Program-made: the position numbers | Origin: Octopus vulgaris | Taxonomy: Eukaryota | Direction: 5' to 3' | NCBI GenBank assembly: GCA_951406725.2 | Contig: OX597816.1 | Location: 155,248,001 to 155,312,000 of the forward strand | DNA length: 64,000 nt | Shown here: piece after piece, positions 1 through 12,000 of the stretch | Layout of the letters: each line of letters starts with the position of its first letter | Position numbering within the stretch: the stretch's first letter is position 1

Positions 1-3000
1 TTTTGAATGCATAATATTCAATGTGACAATTATGTAAAAAACTTTTTTTGAACCCATAATATCCAATGTGACAATTATGTAAAAAACTTTTTTGAATGCA
101 TAATATTCAATGTGACAATTATGTAAAAAACTTTTTTGAACCCATATTATTCAATGTTTCCTTAAATGTAACTTTTGACAATCTTTTACCAAAGAGTGAA
201 ACCGGTTAAGTAAATAAACATCGTTTAAATTGCATTTTCAAACCTTTTTTCTTATATAATCCCACTCGTGCGATACCCCACAACTCAACTTTATATATAT
301 ATATATATATATATATATATATATATATATATATATGTATGTATGTATGTATGTACATATATATGTATATATATATGTCTGTACATGAATCAGAAGTATA
401 TGAATGTTCACTGGGTTTGTAAAAGAGATCAAAGCTAGAGGAAACCAAAATAACGAATGGACAACTCACTTTCAAACATATACTGCATTGTATCTGCCCC
501 CTTTATGCTCCCTCGAAATTGTATGAAACTTACAGCATTATCCTTTTTCCTAGGCTTGGATTTTGTGTTCCAAATGTTATTAGGATCATCCAGTAGTTTT
601 CAATTCTATAAGTAACACACAATCAAACAAACACACAGACATTGACTTTTATATAATAGATATATCTGTGTGCATATGAATATATATGTACTTTTGCAAA
701 CATACATACGCACACATACATACACTTAATTCATATACACATCTATCTATCTATCTATCTATCTATCTATCTATCTATCTATCTATCTATCTATCTATCT
801 ATCTATCTATCTATCTATCTATCTATCTATATCTATCTATCTATCTATCTATCTATCTATCTATCTATCTATCTATCTATCTATCTATCTATCTATCTAT
901 CTATCCATCCATCCATCCATCCATCCATCCATCCATCTATCTATCTATCTATCTATCTATCTATCTATCTATCTATCTATCTATCTATCTATCTATCTAT
1001 CTATTAACCTTTCTTTCCATTGCTATATATACACAGTTAGTCAAAAGTCACTCGAGAGTAAATCAAAATTCCATAAATACTATCTGTAATTGTGTATTGA
1101 TTCGAACGGAAAAATGTGTCGCTCAAGAAGGACTTCCGTTAGAAAACGTTTCATGATGCTTCATATTTAGATGCTCTTATTGAATTCATTCAGTTGTTAA
1201 ACATAAATAAATCTTGGATCTAAGTGGTTTTGATGTACTGCCAGGTGACTTTTGACCAACCCTGTATAGAGAAACATACGCACACACAGATATATATATA
1301 TATATATATATATATATATATATATATATATATAAGAAAAAAGGTTTGAAAATGCAATTTAAACGATGTTTATTTACTTAACCGGTTTCACTCTTTGGTA
1401 AAAGATTGTCAAAAGTTACATTTAAGGAAACATTGAATAATATGGGTTCAAAAAAGTTTTTTACATAATTGTCACATTGAATATTATGCATTCAAAAAAG
1501 TTTTTTACATAATTGTCACATTGGATATTATGGGTTCAAAAAAAGTTTTTTACATAATTGTCACATTGGATATTATGAATTCAAAAATGTTTTTTACATA
1601 ATTGTCACATTGGATATTATGAATTCAAAAATGTTTTTTTATACATAATTGTCACATTATTTGGGAAAATTTGGCAGAAAAGGATAAAACAAATATATTA
1701 TTGGGAATTGGTTGCGTTAATTATTGGTTGTCGCAAATTGTCACATTACATGTATATATATACAATCTTTGGTATATATATACAGCGTTTTGACAGCAAA
1801 AATTAAAATGGCTTTTTTGTACATCTCAGAATATTTTAAGTATGTTTTTACTGACCTGTCAGTATTAGCAGAAAGGCTGAACTGAGAGAACAGAAGAAGT
1901 AGCCAATGTGGTGTATACTTCCCCTTTATGCATGAATGATTTTGGGGTTATCAGGAGGTTAGTATGCGGGTGTGAATAGATGTGTCCGTGCCTGCTGGTC
2001 AGACAGCGTCTGTTTGTCACACACATATATATACACACAAACACACACACACACAACAACACACACACACACACACATAGTATACAAACACACACCACAT
2101 ACAAACAACACACACACACACAGAACACACACACCTACACACAACGCACCCACATATATCACATATACACACAGCACACAAATATAACATGTATCTATAT
2201 ATAACATACACAGATATATAACACACATACACACACAACACACACACACACACACACACACACACACACACAACACACGCACACATACATACATAATATA
2301 AATATCACACAAATACACCTAGCATATATATACACACATACAATACACACATACAGCATGTAAGTAATATACATACACAATATATGCATGCAATATACAT
2401 ACGTAATACATACATATAATATATATATATATAGACAATGCATATACATATATACACATATACATATAAATAGTGTTTACATACACATACATAGATGTAC
2501 CACATATACACACAACACACATACATACAATGCATACACATACACATACGCATACATATAATATATATATACACACACACACACATAACATACATACACA
2601 CACAATGCATACATATATATACACGCAATGCATATACATGTATTCATGCACATATAGCACACCTACAATATACATATATACAGTGCACACATACACACAA
2701 ATATATACACTTAATTGTACACGTACATATACAATACACATACATACAATATACATATACACAATGCGCATGCAAATAATGTACATGTTTATACACACAT
2801 AAACATGCAAATAAATATACACACACACACATACACACACACACATATATATACACATATATATATATATACACACATACATACATACATACATGCACAT
2901 ACATATATTTTTTCACACACATATATATATATAAAAAATTCACCACCCCCCACACACACAAATTACAAACCTATAGCGTACACACTCAAATATATCTCTA

Positions 3001-9000: not shown

Positions 9001-12000
9001 GTTTCCTCTAGCTTTGATCTCTTTTACAAACCCAGTGAACATTCATATACTTCTGATTCATGTACAGACATATATATATACATATATATGTATATACATA
9101 CATACATACATACATATATATATATATATATATATATATATATATATATATATATATATATATATAAAAGTTGAGTTGTGGGGTATCGCACGAGTGGGAT
9201 TATATAAGAAAAAAGGTTTGAAAATGCAATTTAAACGATGTTTATTTACTTAACCGGTTTCACTCTTTGGTAAAAGATTGTCAAAAGTTACATTTAAGGA
9301 AACATTGAATAATATGGGTTCAAAAAAGTTTTTTACATAATTGTCACATTGAATATTATGCATTCAAAAAAGTTTTTTACATAATTGTCACATTGGATAT
9401 TATGGGTTCAAAAAAAGTTTTTTACATAATTGTCACATTGAATATTATGCATTCAAAAAAGTTTTTTACATAATTGTCACATTGGATATTATGAATTCAA
9501 AAATGTTTTTTTATACATAATTGTCACATTATTTGGGAAAATTTGGCAGGAAAGGATAAAACAAATATATTATTGGGAATTGGTTGCGTTAATTATTGGT
9601 TGTCGCAAATTGTCACATTACATGTATATATATACAATCTTTGGTATATATATACAGCGTTTTGACAGCAAAAATTAAAATGGCTTTTTTGTACATCTCA
9701 GAATATTTTAAGTATGTTTTTACTGACCTGTCAGTATTAGCAGAAAGGCTGAACTGAGAGAACAGAAGAAGTAGCCAATGTGGTGTATACTTCCCCTTTA
9801 TGCATGAATGATTTTGGGGTTATCAGGAGGTTAGTATGCGGGTGTGAATAGATGTGTCCGTGCCTGCTGGTCAGACAGCGTCTGTTTGTCACACACATAT
9901 ATATACACACAAACACACACACACACAACAACACACACACACACACACATAGTATACAAACACACACCACATACAAACAACACACACACACACAGAACAC
10001 ACACACCCACACACAACGCACCCACATATATCACATATACACACAGCACACAAATATAACATGTATCTATATATAACATACACAGATATATAACACACAT
10101 ACACACACAACACACACACACACACACACACACACACACACAACACACGCACACATACATACATAATATAAATATCACACAATGTGTGTGTGTGTTGTTG
10201 TGTGTGTGTGTGTTTGTGTGTATATATATGTGTGTGACTGACAAACAGACGCTGTCTGACCAGCAGGCACGGACACATCTATTCACACCCGCATACTAAC
10301 CTCCTGATAACCCCAAAATCATTCATGCATAAAGGGGAAGTATACACCACATTGGCTACTTCTTCTGTTCTCTCAGTTCAGCCTTTCTGCTAATACTGAC
10401 AGGTCAGTAAAAACATACTTAAAATATTCTGAGATGTACAAAAAAGCCATTTTAATTTTTGCTGTCAAAACGCTGTATATATATACCAAAGATTGTATAT
10501 ATATACATGTAATGTGACAATTTGCGACAACCAATAATTAACGCAACCAATTCCCAATAATATATTTGTTTTATCCTTTTCTGCCAAATTTTCCCAAATA
10601 ATGTGACAATTATGTATAAAAAAACATTTTTGAATTCATAATATCCAATGTGACAATTATGTAAAAAACATTTTTGAATTCATAATATCCAATGTGACAA
10701 TTATGTAAAAAACTTTTTTTGAACCCATAATATCCAATGTGACAATTATGTAAAAAACTTTTTTGAATGCATAATATTCAATGTGACAATTATGTAAAAA
10801 ACTTTTTTGAACCCATATTATTCAATGTTTCCTTAAATGTAACTTTTGACAATCTTTTACCAAAGAGTGAAACCGGTTAAGTAAATAAACATCGTTTAAA
10901 TTGCATTTTCAAACCTTTTTTCTTATATAATCCCACTCGTGCGATACCCCACAACTCAACTTTTTATATATATATATATATATATATATATTTGCGCATA
11001 TATATTATATATATATATATGCATATAGATATATACATACATACCGCCCACATATATATGCATATGTATGTATGTCATTCAGTTTTATTTCAAGGGTTCT
11101 TGCATATAAAGACCCTGTTTTTTTTATCAAGATCCAAGACTCCTTCATTGGAATTTCAGCATCAATAATAGGATATTTTTGTTTACTTGTGTACGTTTGT
11201 ATGTATGTATGTATGTATGTATGTATGTATGTATGTATGTATGTATGTATGTATGTATATATGCATGTATGTATGTGTTTATGTATGCATGTATTGCATT
11301 TTCGAATTGTCGAAATTAGTGTGGGTTACATGTAATATGTTGTAATATCTCGTAACCATTATTCATAATCATGATTTTTCTGAACCATATATATATATTT
11401 GTGTGTGTGTGTATGTGTGTGTGTGTGTGTATTTATATGTGTATGTGTGTGTGCGTGTGCATATATATATGGTTATATTTTTCTTACGAAAGATATATAT
11501 ATATATATATATATATATATATATAATTTCTCTTTTTCTTCTCTTGGCATTACAACACTTCCAAGGTGGATGATGACACGAATGAAACCATTCCATTGAT
11601 AATAGCTGGTGGCGGCGGTGGCATTGGTGTTGGTCCCTTCCAGAAAGATCCGTCTGTCTTATATTCGGATATCGACTTTACTATTAATGGAACAAACGGA
11701 AATATGTCCATTTCCGGTGCTGGTATGTTTGTTTAGCTATATAAATCTTCCTTCTGTTGTTTCTTTTTGTTTTATTTCTCTGCTTTTAATCTGCGATAAA
11801 GTTAATTGCTTTCTATGTTCTAAGCAACTTTAAAATGTTATGTAAAAATTGACTTCGGTATCCATAAGAGATTCTTCATAGGTCGTTGCCTAGCTCTCAC
11901 CATTTAATGGATCTAAAACGGATGAGACAAAAATCTTCTGGTGCAAACGCTTGTCAATCACACATGTGGTTAGGCTCTGTAGATATGTGTTATCTAATCG

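What the first reader, a model, noticed from the sequence alone, without database searches (positions are those of the whole stretch)
1..10962. Neptune-type Penelope element inside a nested giant palindrome whose arms include captured flanking DNA
Seen: arms of at least 3.6 kb (1-3657 vs 5882-9458) enclose a 2.2 kb RT-coding loop. The arms continue past the element's 3' end through (TA)n, a TA-flanked MITE, (GATA)n, a Helitron remnant and into a separate pLTR. The outer array at 1-150 shares its unit-variant order with the 9310-9460 array and differs from the other three arrays, confirming the mirror. Known: PLEs often insert with an inverted 5'-truncated copy of their own 3' end. Inference: a read-through RNA (element + host flank + downstream pLTR hairpin, ending at 10962) was retrotransposed as one unit with a multi-kb inverted copy. 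This would be a PLE-driven 3' transduction and palindrome-making route, probably within an ALK-family intron.
Basis: partly seen in the sequence, partly recalled or inferred. Interest (0 to 1): 0.85.

Follow-up and report, generated by a model that had tools for sequence, protein, structure and literature searches.

The report
Penelope-like retroelement palindrome including neighbouring DNA
A young, coding-defective Penelope-like retrotransposon sits head-to-head with an inverted partial copy of itself, as is usual for such elements, but here the mirror image runs at least 1.3 kb past the element's end into neighbouring DNA, which points to co-copying of flanking sequence without proving how it happened.

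Summary
Window 1-3657 is the reverse complement of 5882-9458 around a 2224-bp loop. The arms differ by 4 substitutions and 15 indels, all in microsatellite or homopolymer sequence.

The loop and right arm form a 4.55-kb Penelope-like element (PLE) on the + strand. Its single RT/GIY-YIG ORF is broken by two compensating frameshifts. The left arm is the usual inverted 5'-truncated copy.

Both copies end without the optional 33-nt tail, directly in (TA)n. The mirror still continues through (TA)n, a MITE-like repeat, (GATA)n and unique DNA. It then enters a separate head-to-head pair of same-family 3' ends (D/E) that do carry the tail.

The window start cuts the mirror, so its outer end is unseen. 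The mechanism is therefore open:
- DNA-level fold-back: about 0.30
- assembly artefact: about 0.15

'Neptune' cannot be separated from Nematis. 'Helitron remnant' is unsupported. An ALK/LTK-like exon lies downstream. This is a variant of known PLE behaviour, of moderate interest.

The parts
1..259 (+). Copy A: mirror of the last 259 nt of copy D (PLE 3' end, element-sense on +), cut by the window start; includes 3.5 units of the 44-bp array
   Evidence: 100% complementary to 9167-9458 together with the tail (I9); shares D-specific bases at columns 364 and 373; TRF array 1-157
260..292 (+). 33-nt optional PLE 'tail' of copy A, abutting (TA)n
   Evidence: alignment; I9
293..376 (.). (TA)n, mirror of 9070-9166
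   Evidence: TRF 292-376
377..740 (-). Mirror of the unique spacer part 8706-9069
   Evidence: I8 292-748 vs 8698-9154, 100%
741..1004 (.). (ATCT)n, 66.5 units, mirror of (GATA)n 8529-8705 (44.5 units)
   Evidence: left arm longer by 65+2+20 bp
1005..1289 (-). Mirror of the MITE-like segment 8244-8528
   Evidence: I7 836-1330 vs 8203-8697, 98%
1290..1334 (.). (AT)n directly abutting the tail-less 3' end of the inverted PLE copy
1329..3657 (-). Inverted 5'-truncated PLE copy: 3' region (copy B 1329-2312, with 44-bp array 1430-1658), CA-rich 3' UTR, and the last 174 nt of the ORF (3484-3657); truncated at the equivalent of 5882
3658..8208 (+). Longer PLE copy (4551 bp): leader 3658-3790; ORF from 3791 (conserved start; an upstream ATG at 3692) to stop at 6053-6055; 3' UTR 6056-8208 with copy C 7232-8208 and array 7878-8107; AATAAA at 8163-8168; no tail
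4790..4830 (+). ORF defect: the frame shifts in an A7 run and returns after an apparent 13-nt loss, leaving a TGA at 4805-4807 in the out-of-frame stretch
   Evidence: three-frame translations against the homologue alignment; DNA
8203..8243 (.). (TA)n abutting the tail-less 3' end of the longer copy
8244..8528 (.). MITE-like segment: 68-nt terminal inverted arms 8265-8332 / 8438-8505 (71% complementary), TA at both ends
8529..8705 (.). (GATA)n with an internal (GATG) block
8706..9069 (.).
   Evidence: no other copy in the window; only AT-rich short palindromes, no GC-rich hairpin
9070..9166 (.). (ATAC)n/(TA)n microsatellite, left target flank of D
9167..10182 (-). Copy D: 5'-truncated PLE 3' end (tail 9167-9199 plus 983 nt), antisense on +
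10183..10963 (+). Copy E: 5'-truncated PLE 3' end (748 nt plus tail 10931-10963), head-to-head with D
   Evidence: (I2)
10964..11043 (.). (TA)n-rich right target flank of E; no mirrored unique DNA beyond it

Best explanation
An EN+ Penelope-like element of the linker-bearing (Neptune/Nematis) type integrated as the usual head-to-head pair. One longer copy (3658-8208, + strand) sits beside an inverted copy truncated at the equivalent of 5882.

The template was not a unit-length RNA. It was a read-through transcript that passed the element's own AATAAA and tail-less terminus at 8208. It ran through about 0.96 kb of foreign DNA: (TA)n, a MITE-like repeat, (GATA)n, a unique segment and (TA)n. It ended in a downstream 3' end of the same family (copy E). 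That end supplied the reverse-transcription entry site and the 33-nt tail.

Both arms were copied from that template in a single event. This happened either by priming on both cleaved target strands or by fold-back self-priming of the cDNA. So both arms carry the same foreign DNA and the same D-specific variants. The source copy was already coding-defective, so the proteins came in trans.

Shown here:
- the anatomy
- the youth of the duplication
- the two kinds of 3' terminus
- the presence of a sense-oriented tailed 3' end downstream

Inferred:
- that the intermediate was RNA
- that the mirror ends at the tail about 1.5 kb left of the window
- that a donor locus exists
For: 1. Canonical PLE architecture. 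There is an inverted 5'-truncated copy abutting the 5' end of a longer copy, as described in PMC8557442 (passages read).

2. The mirror passes a bona fide element terminus. B and C end tail-less in (TA)n, while D, E and A carry a 33-nt tail. Tail-less and tailed ends are the two known RT start sites (PMC11167929, passages).

3. The mirror reaches into D with D's private variants: 292 nt at 100% and columns 364 and 373.

4. What the RNA model needs is present. A same-family, sense-oriented, tailed 3' end (E) lies 2.7 kb downstream. Under a DNA-level model its presence is an unneeded coincidence; the remaining 53 kb of the window hold no other copy of this family.

5. There is an internal comparator. 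The D/E pair, an ordinary head-to-head insertion of the same family, stops mirroring at its tails and (TA)n. Flank inclusion is therefore not routine.

6. There is precedent. Pen1_Av of Adineta vaga has 0.9-1.5 kb of captured host DNA between its body and its 3'-terminal repeat. Unrelated sequences between solo repeats are mobilised in trans (PMC3846280, passages). [quoted passage not shown]

7. A PLE protein cleaves and extends both target strands in vitro (PMC11167929, passage).

8. Outer and inner arm parts differ at similar densities, 6 differences in 1328 bp against 13 in 2329 bp. This fits one event for the whole arm.
Against: - No feature in the window tells RNA-level from DNA-level copying. 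The outer end of the mirror is cut by the window start.
- No donor or second copy of the spacer could be looked for. No eukaryotic genome collection was open, and the one scan of prokaryotic genomes found no relative.
- The microsatellite is composite, ATAC repeats plus (TA)n, on both sides of D/E. That is what a native, undisturbed D/E insertion site would look like, and it slightly favours the right flank being original host DNA. Such repeats are, however, common throughout the window.
- The template RNA would contain a roughly 750-bp near-perfect D/E hairpin, an obstacle for reverse transcriptase. The 292 nt of A show no differences from D at all.
- No hammerhead ribozyme and no direct upstream repeat were found. 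The element's transcription and processing signals are therefore unknown.
- The whole left arm could still be an assembly product.
Confidence: 0.42

Rival explanations
1. DNA-level fold-back. The longer copy inserted into (TA)n of this locus, and the spacer and D/E are native right-flank DNA. In one variant, at integration, fold-back second-strand synthesis ran off the 5' end of the cDNA into the covalently attached flank. In the other, replication later switched templates between the 2.3-kb inverted element arms. Either way an inverted copy of the right flank was laid down on the left and joined to the left flank at an arbitrary point.
For: It predicts exactly the visible structure. It needs no donor locus and no read-through. 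Composite ATAC/(TA)n repeats on both sides of D/E fit a native site. A retrotransposition event bridging DNA head-to-head and duplicating flanking DNA in inverted orientation is documented for L1 in tumours (PMC7058536, passages). Long inverted repeats are known triggers of inverted duplication (recalled, not read here).
Against: A same-family tailed 3' end just downstream becomes a coincidence; there is one such unit in 64 kb. Known fold-back products are usually chromosome-scale and unstable, so a second, local breakpoint is needed. The ordinary D/E insertion of the same family shows no run-on into its flank.
Confidence: 0.3
2. Assembly artefact. Only the right half is real. The left arm, or at least its outer 1.3 kb, was produced by a chimeric inverted read or by attaching right-arm reads to the near-identical left arm. 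This would most likely be at a contig end.
For: The palindrome runs off the window start inside a 44-bp array present in five local copies, a typical place for a contig to end. PLE tandem/inverted structures are stated to cause assembly problems (PMC8557442, passage). Copy C has three private 1-nt homopolymer differences within about 100 bp, and the ORF's first frameshift sits in an A7 run. Both could be consensus errors.
Against: The turn-round has a 2.2-kb loop whose edges fit PLE biology: one copy starts 133 nt before the conserved start codon and the other is truncated inside the ORF. Simple fold-back reads have no loop. If the outer arms were one DNA segment written twice, they should agree in microsatellite length, yet they differ by 65, 20, 9, 4, 4 and 2 bp. 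If they were two alleles, about 930 bp of unique sequence with 0 substitutions would be unexpected in a heterozygous invertebrate (inference). Apart from that one short shifted stretch (4790-4830), the 846-codon frame stays open despite many A-runs, which argues against a noisy consensus.
Confidence: 0.15
3. Pre-existing palindrome. The spacer plus D/E was already duplicated in inverted orientation around a central (TA)n. The PLE pair then inserted into that central (TA)n.
For: All element termini lie in (TA)n. (TA)n is self-complementary and could be the centre of a cruciform-prone palindrome. The two (TA)n remnants next to B and C are of similar length, 45 and 41 bp.
Against: It needs two rare, very recent events at one spot. 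The outer and inner arm parts show the same near-zero divergence. The origin of the first palindrome is left unexplained.
Confidence: 0.05

Closest known systems
Canonical EN+ Penelope-like element insertion with an adjacent inverted 5'-truncated copy and an optional 30-40-bp tail (PMC8557442 text and Fig. 2 legend; PMC11167929; passages read)
   Same: Single RT plus C-terminal GIY-YIG ORF. Head-to-head inverted 5'-truncated copy. A 33-nt tail on some termini only. Insertion into (TA)n. In-frame stop and defects as in many genomic copies.
   Different: The inverted repeat does not end at the element terminus; it includes at least 1.25 kb of non-element DNA and part of another insertion. No direct upstream repeat (pLTR) and no hammerhead motif were found. 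The 2.15-kb 3' UTR is largely microsatellite-like.
Pen1_Av and pLTR-flanked captured sequences in the rotifer Adineta vaga (PMC3846280; summarised as PLE transduction in PMC6431247; passages read)
   Same: Here 0.96 kb of foreign DNA lies between the element body and a terminal same-family 3' repeat; Pen1_Av has 0.9-1.5 kb. Terminal repeats act as the cis signal, so anything between them can be carried.
   Different: There the terminal repeat is direct and the units are bounded by target-site duplications at independent loci. Here the captured DNA is present twice in mirror orientation, the terminal unit is itself an inverted pair, and independent copies or a TSD could not be examined.
L1 3' transduction and twin priming (transduction: passage in PMC6431247; twin priming: recalled, not read here)
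   Same: Read-through past a weak own poly(A) signal to a downstream signal. Two primings give inverted segments within one insertion.
   Different: L1 twin priming starts internally on the RNA and gives an inversion, not a duplicated palindrome. PLE RT needs its own 3' sequence rather than a poly(A) tail.
Retrotransposition-associated fold-back inversion (L1 in tumours, PMC7058536, passages read) and inverted-repeat-mediated inverted duplication (recalled)
   Same: Head-to-head element junction with flanking DNA duplicated in inverted orientation.
   Different: Those events are megabase-scale and somatic. Here a local, apparently germline structure of unknown outer limit is seen.

Membership tests
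EN+ Penelope-like elements | Single ORF with a PLE-type reverse transcriptase followed by a C-terminal GIY-YIG endonuclease | tested here: met
   RVT_1 E=1.5e-8. 931 homologues at E<=0.001 among 4379 candidates, best 70% identity, many with precomputed PF00078 plus PF01541. End-to-end alignment with 8 of them. The local Pfam scan itself did not report GIY-YIG at E<=0.01.
EN+ Penelope-like elements | [quoted passage not shown] | tested here: met
   C759, C762, H781 and H798 are invariant in 9 of 9 aligned sequences. Their assignment to the CCHH motif follows PMC8557442 (passage) and my reading.
EN+ Penelope-like elements | Inverted 5'-truncated copy adjacent to the 5' end | tested here: met
   1329-3657 mirrors 5882-8208.
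EN+ Penelope-like elements | Optional 30-40-bp tail at an end of the insertion | tested here: met
   A 33-nt tail is on D, E and A and is absent from B and C.
EN+ Penelope-like elements | Pseudo-LTR formed by a partial direct tandem copy upstream | tested here: not met
   No direct copy of the 3' region precedes 3658; all local copies are listed. Frequent 5' truncation could explain the absence.
EN+ Penelope-like elements | Hammerhead ribozyme motif in the terminal repeats (canonical clades) | tested here: not met
   There was no hammerhead family among 0 gathering-level matches or among 132 matches at E<=10 in 1-11100. The core pattern has 8 matches in the window, none in the 3' regions. No positive control was available. 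Atypical minimal variants can escape such searches (PMC4209133, passages).
Neptune clade of PLEs | CX2-5CxxC zinc-finger-like linker between RT and EN | tested here: met
   C715, C720 and C723 (CX4CXXC) are invariant in 9 of 9 sequences. The feature is shared with Nematis (PMC8557442, passage), so it does not single out Neptune.
Neptune clade of PLEs | Phylogenetic placement with named Neptune references rather than Nematis, Penelope/Poseidon or Hydra | not tested
   No named reference sequences were available. The source names are uninformative, and the cluster look-up could not be made.
Neptune clade of PLEs | Insertion bias for (TA)n | tested here: met
   5 of 5 visible termini abut (TA)n. 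Only 3 are independent, since A and B mirror D and C.
PLE-mediated transduction / captured spacer (Pen1_Av-like) | Non-element DNA lying between the element body and a terminal same-family 3' repeat | tested here: met
   8209-9166 lies between C and D/E, and is mirrored at 293-1328.
PLE-mediated transduction / captured spacer (Pen1_Av-like) | The composite unit ends at the terminal repeat's RT start site on both sides and sits at a new locus (TSD or donor elsewhere) | not testable with these tools
   The left end lies outside the window. No eukaryotic genome collection was open. (TA)n targets hide any TSD.
   Only 4 short AT-rich palindromes were found in 8700-9075. The hallmark itself is recalled, not read here.
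   68-nt arms 8265-8332 / 8438-8505 are 71% complementary, with TA at both ends. No other copy lies in the window.
ALK/LTK receptor gene (context) | Glycine-rich extracellular domain exon | tested here: met
   ORF 21959-22186 (+) matches LTK (7nx0) at E=3e-6 and seven ALK chains at E=2.5e-4 to 4.8e-4 over 62 residues. ORF 11527-11733 has no Pfam or PDB match. ORF 51012-51272 has an EGF-like match below cut-off and no PDB match.

The most novel reading that the evidence does not exclude
A Penelope-like element copied a 7.3-kb read-through template in one integration event. The template ran from the element through host intronic DNA to a neighbouring solo 3' end that served as RT entry site. It may have been part of the host ALK/LTK-like pre-mRNA, which runs in the same direction. 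The event folded it into a palindrome of about 12 kb with arms of about 5 kb. PLEs would then be a direct source of large, host-DNA-bearing palindromes in animal genomes, and movers of intronic DNA.
Probability: 0.35. Interest if true: 0.55.

Novelty: new variant of a known kind. Interest (0 to 1): 0.35.

Why it matters
The way PLEs make their tandem and inverted insertion structures is still an open mechanistic question (stated in PMC8557442 and PMC11167929, passages). A very young insertion is informative here. Its two arms share foreign DNA, and a same-family insertion next door shows the ordinary outcome.

If the mirror ends exactly at the tail, both arms came from a template defined by the RT entry site. 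Downstream solo 3' ends would then let PLEs carry kilobases of host DNA and create long palindromes, which are fragile and recombinogenic, inside genes. If the mirror ends elsewhere, the locus shows instead that PLE inverted pairs seed DNA-level inverted duplication.

Either result is a modest extension of known PLE behaviour, not a new kind of system.

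Tried and rejected
- **Hammerhead search.** Rfam gave nothing at gathering level on the whole window. At E<=10 on 1-11100 (132 matches) and at E<=1 on 39000-42000 (5 matches), the matches were low-complexity chance hits, almost all to microRNA families and none to a hammerhead family. The core-motif scan gave 8 matches against 3.1 expected, none in the element's 3' regions. 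The one at 3914-3954 lies in conserved coding sequence and was judged chance.
- **Source organisms of the closest proteins.** The look-up could not be made, so they stay unknown. The only names seen are bivalve-symbiont genome bins. I read these as host contamination, hinting at a mollusc-like host (inference only).
- **Related loci.** The scan of prokaryotic genome contigs found 0 relatives. The permitted second scan was not used, because distant relatives on 3-4-kb contigs could not bear on the flank question.
- **Spacer against the phage collection.** No match. That collection is irrelevant here, so this says nothing.
- **ALK check.** The first candidate exon gave nothing in Pfam or PDB. 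The Pfam scan of 150 of 538 ORFs of 45 aa or more right of 11100 (the 150 with highest residue entropy) gave only non-LTR RT domains and one sub-threshold EGF-like match. A search for glycine-rich ORFs then gave the exon confirmed.
- **Microhomology at the 3657/3658 junction.** None is visible beyond the junction. Up to 3 nt cannot be excluded, because a 13-nt stretch overlapping the junction recurs 47 nt downstream.
- **D/E as part of one complex event with the main element.** Rejected, because a MITE-like repeat and unique DNA lie between them.

Full report

Yes. The repeat finder and blastn of 1-12000 against the window (rows under 150 nt not printed) show that 1-3657 is the reverse complement of 5882-9458. 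The unique loop is 2224 nt (3658-5881). The window holds no N.

A global alignment of the arms finds 4 substitutions, at left-arm positions 2136, 3145, 3161 and 3222, all inside CA-rich low-complexity sequence. It also finds 15 indels, every one in a microsatellite or an A/T run. The further 6 substitutions and 6 indels printed by that call lie beyond the arm end, where the alignment was forced.

The non-element outer part (1-1328 vs 8209-9458) has no substitution and six repeat-length differences. The (GATA)n array has 66.5 vs 44.5 units. The nested palindrome is also real: 9166-9947 vs 10183-10964, 782 nt, 98%.

**2. What is in the loop and arms?**

A stop-to-stop frame on the + strand runs 3518-6055 with one internal stop.
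- It matches RVT_1 (E=1.5e-8).
- It has 931 homologues at E<=0.001 among 4379 candidates, the best at 70% identity and about 750-770 aa long. Many carry precomputed RT and GIY-YIG domains.
- Aligned with 8 of them, it is collinear from the conserved start (window 3791; an extra ATG at 3692) to the end.
- A CX4CXXC linker and two Cys plus two His in the GIY-YIG region are invariant.

Three-frame translation, the alignment and the DNA show that the internal stop lies in a short out-of-frame stretch. The frame shifts in an A7 run and returns after an apparent 13-nt loss that removes four conserved codons. The copy is therefore coding-defective.

The longer copy spans 3658-8208. Its 3' UTR (6056-8208) is 2.15 kb, mostly TG/TA-rich low complexity, and holds a 44-bp array. 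An AATAAA lies 40 nt before the terminus. The left arm up to 1329 is an inverted copy truncated inside the ORF at the equivalent of 5882. This is the architecture given for PLEs in PMC8557442 (passages read).

**3. The five copies of the 3' kilobase**

One search aligns A (1-258, cut by the window), B (1329-2312), C (7232-8208), D (9201-10182) and E (10183-10929).
- B and C run straight into (TA)n.
- D, E and A carry an extra 33 nt before (TA)n.

PMC11167929 (passages) shows that such a 'tail' is the stretch between two alternative RT start sites and is present in only a fraction of copies. Position 8208 is therefore a genuine element terminus, and the mirror passes it.

D differs from B, C and E at three array positions and one further site. 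A shares the two of these that it covers (columns 364 and 373).

D and E are themselves a head-to-head pair of 5'-truncated copies (1016 and 781 nt with tails) in a (TA)n/(ATAC)n microsatellite. Beyond their tails the two flanks share only TA/TACA low complexity. For this family, then, an ordinary insertion does not mirror its flanks. That makes the big palindrome unusual and gives an internal comparator.

**4. The DNA between C and D**

It holds, in order:
- (TA)n
- a 285-bp segment with 68-nt inverted arms (71% complementary) and TA at both ends, plausibly a MITE
- (GATA)n
- 364 bp of unique sequence
- (TA)n

Only AT-rich short palindromes occur there.

No hammerhead ribozyme was detected. 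I had no positive control, and atypical minimal variants can escape such searches (PMC4209133, passages). No direct upstream repeat exists.

**5. Context**

The window is very rich in microsatellites.
- ORF 21959-22186 (+) matches the glycine-rich domain of LTK (E=3e-6) and ALK (E about 3e-4) over 62 residues.
- A second glycine-rich ORF at 11527-11733 (+), 480 bp right of E's flank, has no database match.
- A sub-threshold EGF-like match lies at 51012-51272 (+).

'Intron' depends on exons left of the window. The longer PLE copy has the same orientation as these exons. I do not take the window for human: it carries a near-identical, recently duplicated PLE, and its closest named relatives come from bivalve-associated bins.

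**6. How was it made?**

The visible facts are these:
- a canonical PLE head-to-head pair
- arms that include 1.25 kb of non-element DNA
- near-zero divergence, equal in the inner part (13 differences in 2329 bp) and the outer part (6 in 1328 bp)
- a tailed, sense-oriented same-family 3' end 2.7 kb downstream

Both arms derive from it, either by priming on both target strands or by fold-back of the cDNA. A PLE protein cleaves and extends both strands in vitro (PMC11167929). Self-priming was proposed for PLE inverted junctions in PMC3846280.

Precedent exists. Pen1_Av carries 0.9-1.5 kb of captured host DNA before its terminal repeat, and unrelated DNA between solo repeats is mobilised in trans (PMC3846280). 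PMC6431247 lists PLEs among transducing retroelements.

The model explains why a usable 3' end sits downstream. No other copy of this family occurs in the remaining 53 kb.

*Model 2 (about 0.30).* The right flank is native and was copied at DNA level. Either fold-back synthesis ran off the cDNA into the attached flank, or replication later switched templates between the 2.3-kb arms. Its topology is consistent with the visible order (my inference). L1-bridged fold-back inversions are a documented analogue (PMC7058536, passages). Composite ATAC/(TA)n repeats on both sides of D/E fit a native site, weakly.

*Model 3 (about 0.15).* An assembly artefact. For it: the palindrome leaves the window inside a five-copy array, and PLE structures are known to upset assemblies. 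Against it:
- the 2.2-kb loop has edges that make biological sense
- repeat-length differences of up to 65 bp separate the outer arms
- those same outer arms have no substitution in about 930 bp of unique sequence
- apart from the one short shifted stretch at 4790-4830, the 846-codon frame stays open

*Model 4 (about 0.05).* A pre-existing palindrome with the PLE inserted at its (TA)n centre. It needs two rare recent events at one spot.

The remaining probability, about 0.08, is left for mechanisms not listed here.

**7. What I could not do**

- The outer end of the mirror, a donor locus, other family copies, spanning reads and empty alleles are all outside the tools.
- The only open DNA collection holds prokaryotic genomes (0 relatives).
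- The cluster look-up could not be made.
- Supplements of the cited papers were not opened. Those of PMC8557442 (family consensus files) could settle the clade.
- All papers were read as passages returned by term searches, not in full.
- Twin priming, inverted-repeat-mediated duplication and amplification chimeras are recalled, not read here.

**8. Is it known?**

- A search for 'Penelope-like' plus 'transduction' (32 papers, 15 listed) led to the PLE transduction statement in PMC6431247, read.
- A search for 'Penelope-like' plus 'palindrome' (16 papers, 12 listed) yielded only the short junction palindromes of PMC3846280 (read).
- A search for 'Penelope-like', 'pLTR', 'tail' and 'microsatellite' listed the structural papers, read.

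I found no description of a multi-kilobase PLE palindrome whose arms carry host DNA. These searches cover open-access text only.

**9. Verdict**

The finding is a variant of known PLE behaviour with an untested mechanism and a non-trivial artefact risk. Interest is 0.35. About 1.5 kb of sequence to the left of the window would decide most of it.

Noticed in passing
window 21959-22186 (+); also 11527-11733 (+) and 51012-51272 (+): There is an exon-like ORF with the ALK/LTK glycine-rich domain (LTK E=3e-6, ALK E about 3e-4). A second glycine-rich ORF has no match. A third ORF has an EGF-like match below cut-off and no PDB match. All are on the same strand as the longer PLE copy.
   Followed up: partly
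window 40327-40695 (+), with 40074-40098 (+): A second, degraded PLE fragment from a different family carries a linker-like Cys motif. A hammerhead-core-like pattern lies 230 bp upstream. Rfam at E<=1 did not confirm a ribozyme, and Pfam found nothing.
   Followed up: partly
window 33116-35149 (-): A non-LTR retrotransposon remnant has RVT_1 in two adjacent ORFs (E=1.2e-14 and 4.9e-16) plus zf-RVT. Long homopolymer-like runs lie nearby at about 32400-32680 and 35050-35280.
   Followed up: no
window 4790-4830 (+): Two compensating frameshifts in the PLE ORF enclose the only internal stop: an extra A in an A7 run, then an apparent 13-nt loss. Whether the first is a real mutation or a homopolymer consensus error is open.
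   Followed up: partly
window 3655-3667 and 3702-3714 (+): A 13-nt stretch that overlaps the inverted junction at 3657/3658 recurs 47 nt downstream in the leader. It could mark microhomology or a template slip at the junction. It is unexplained.
   Followed up: no
window 16865-17135, 28094-28595, 40796-41149, 42334-42706, 45316-45892: A dispersed repeat family of about 270-370 bp is present in both orientations at 77-94% identity. Several copies are flanked by microsatellites. It may be a SINE or MITE family.
   Followed up: no
window 26824-27040 vs 27869-27653; 28741-28868 vs 29217-29090: Two further local inverted-repeat pairs (218 nt at 97.7%; 128 nt at 96.1%) are separated by about 0.6 and 0.2 kb. 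They are unrelated to the PLE.
   Followed up: no
window 7997-8087 (copy C): Copy C has three private 1-nt A/T-run length differences within about 100 bp, compared with B, D, E and, where it overlaps, A. These are either real slippage or local consensus error.
   Followed up: no
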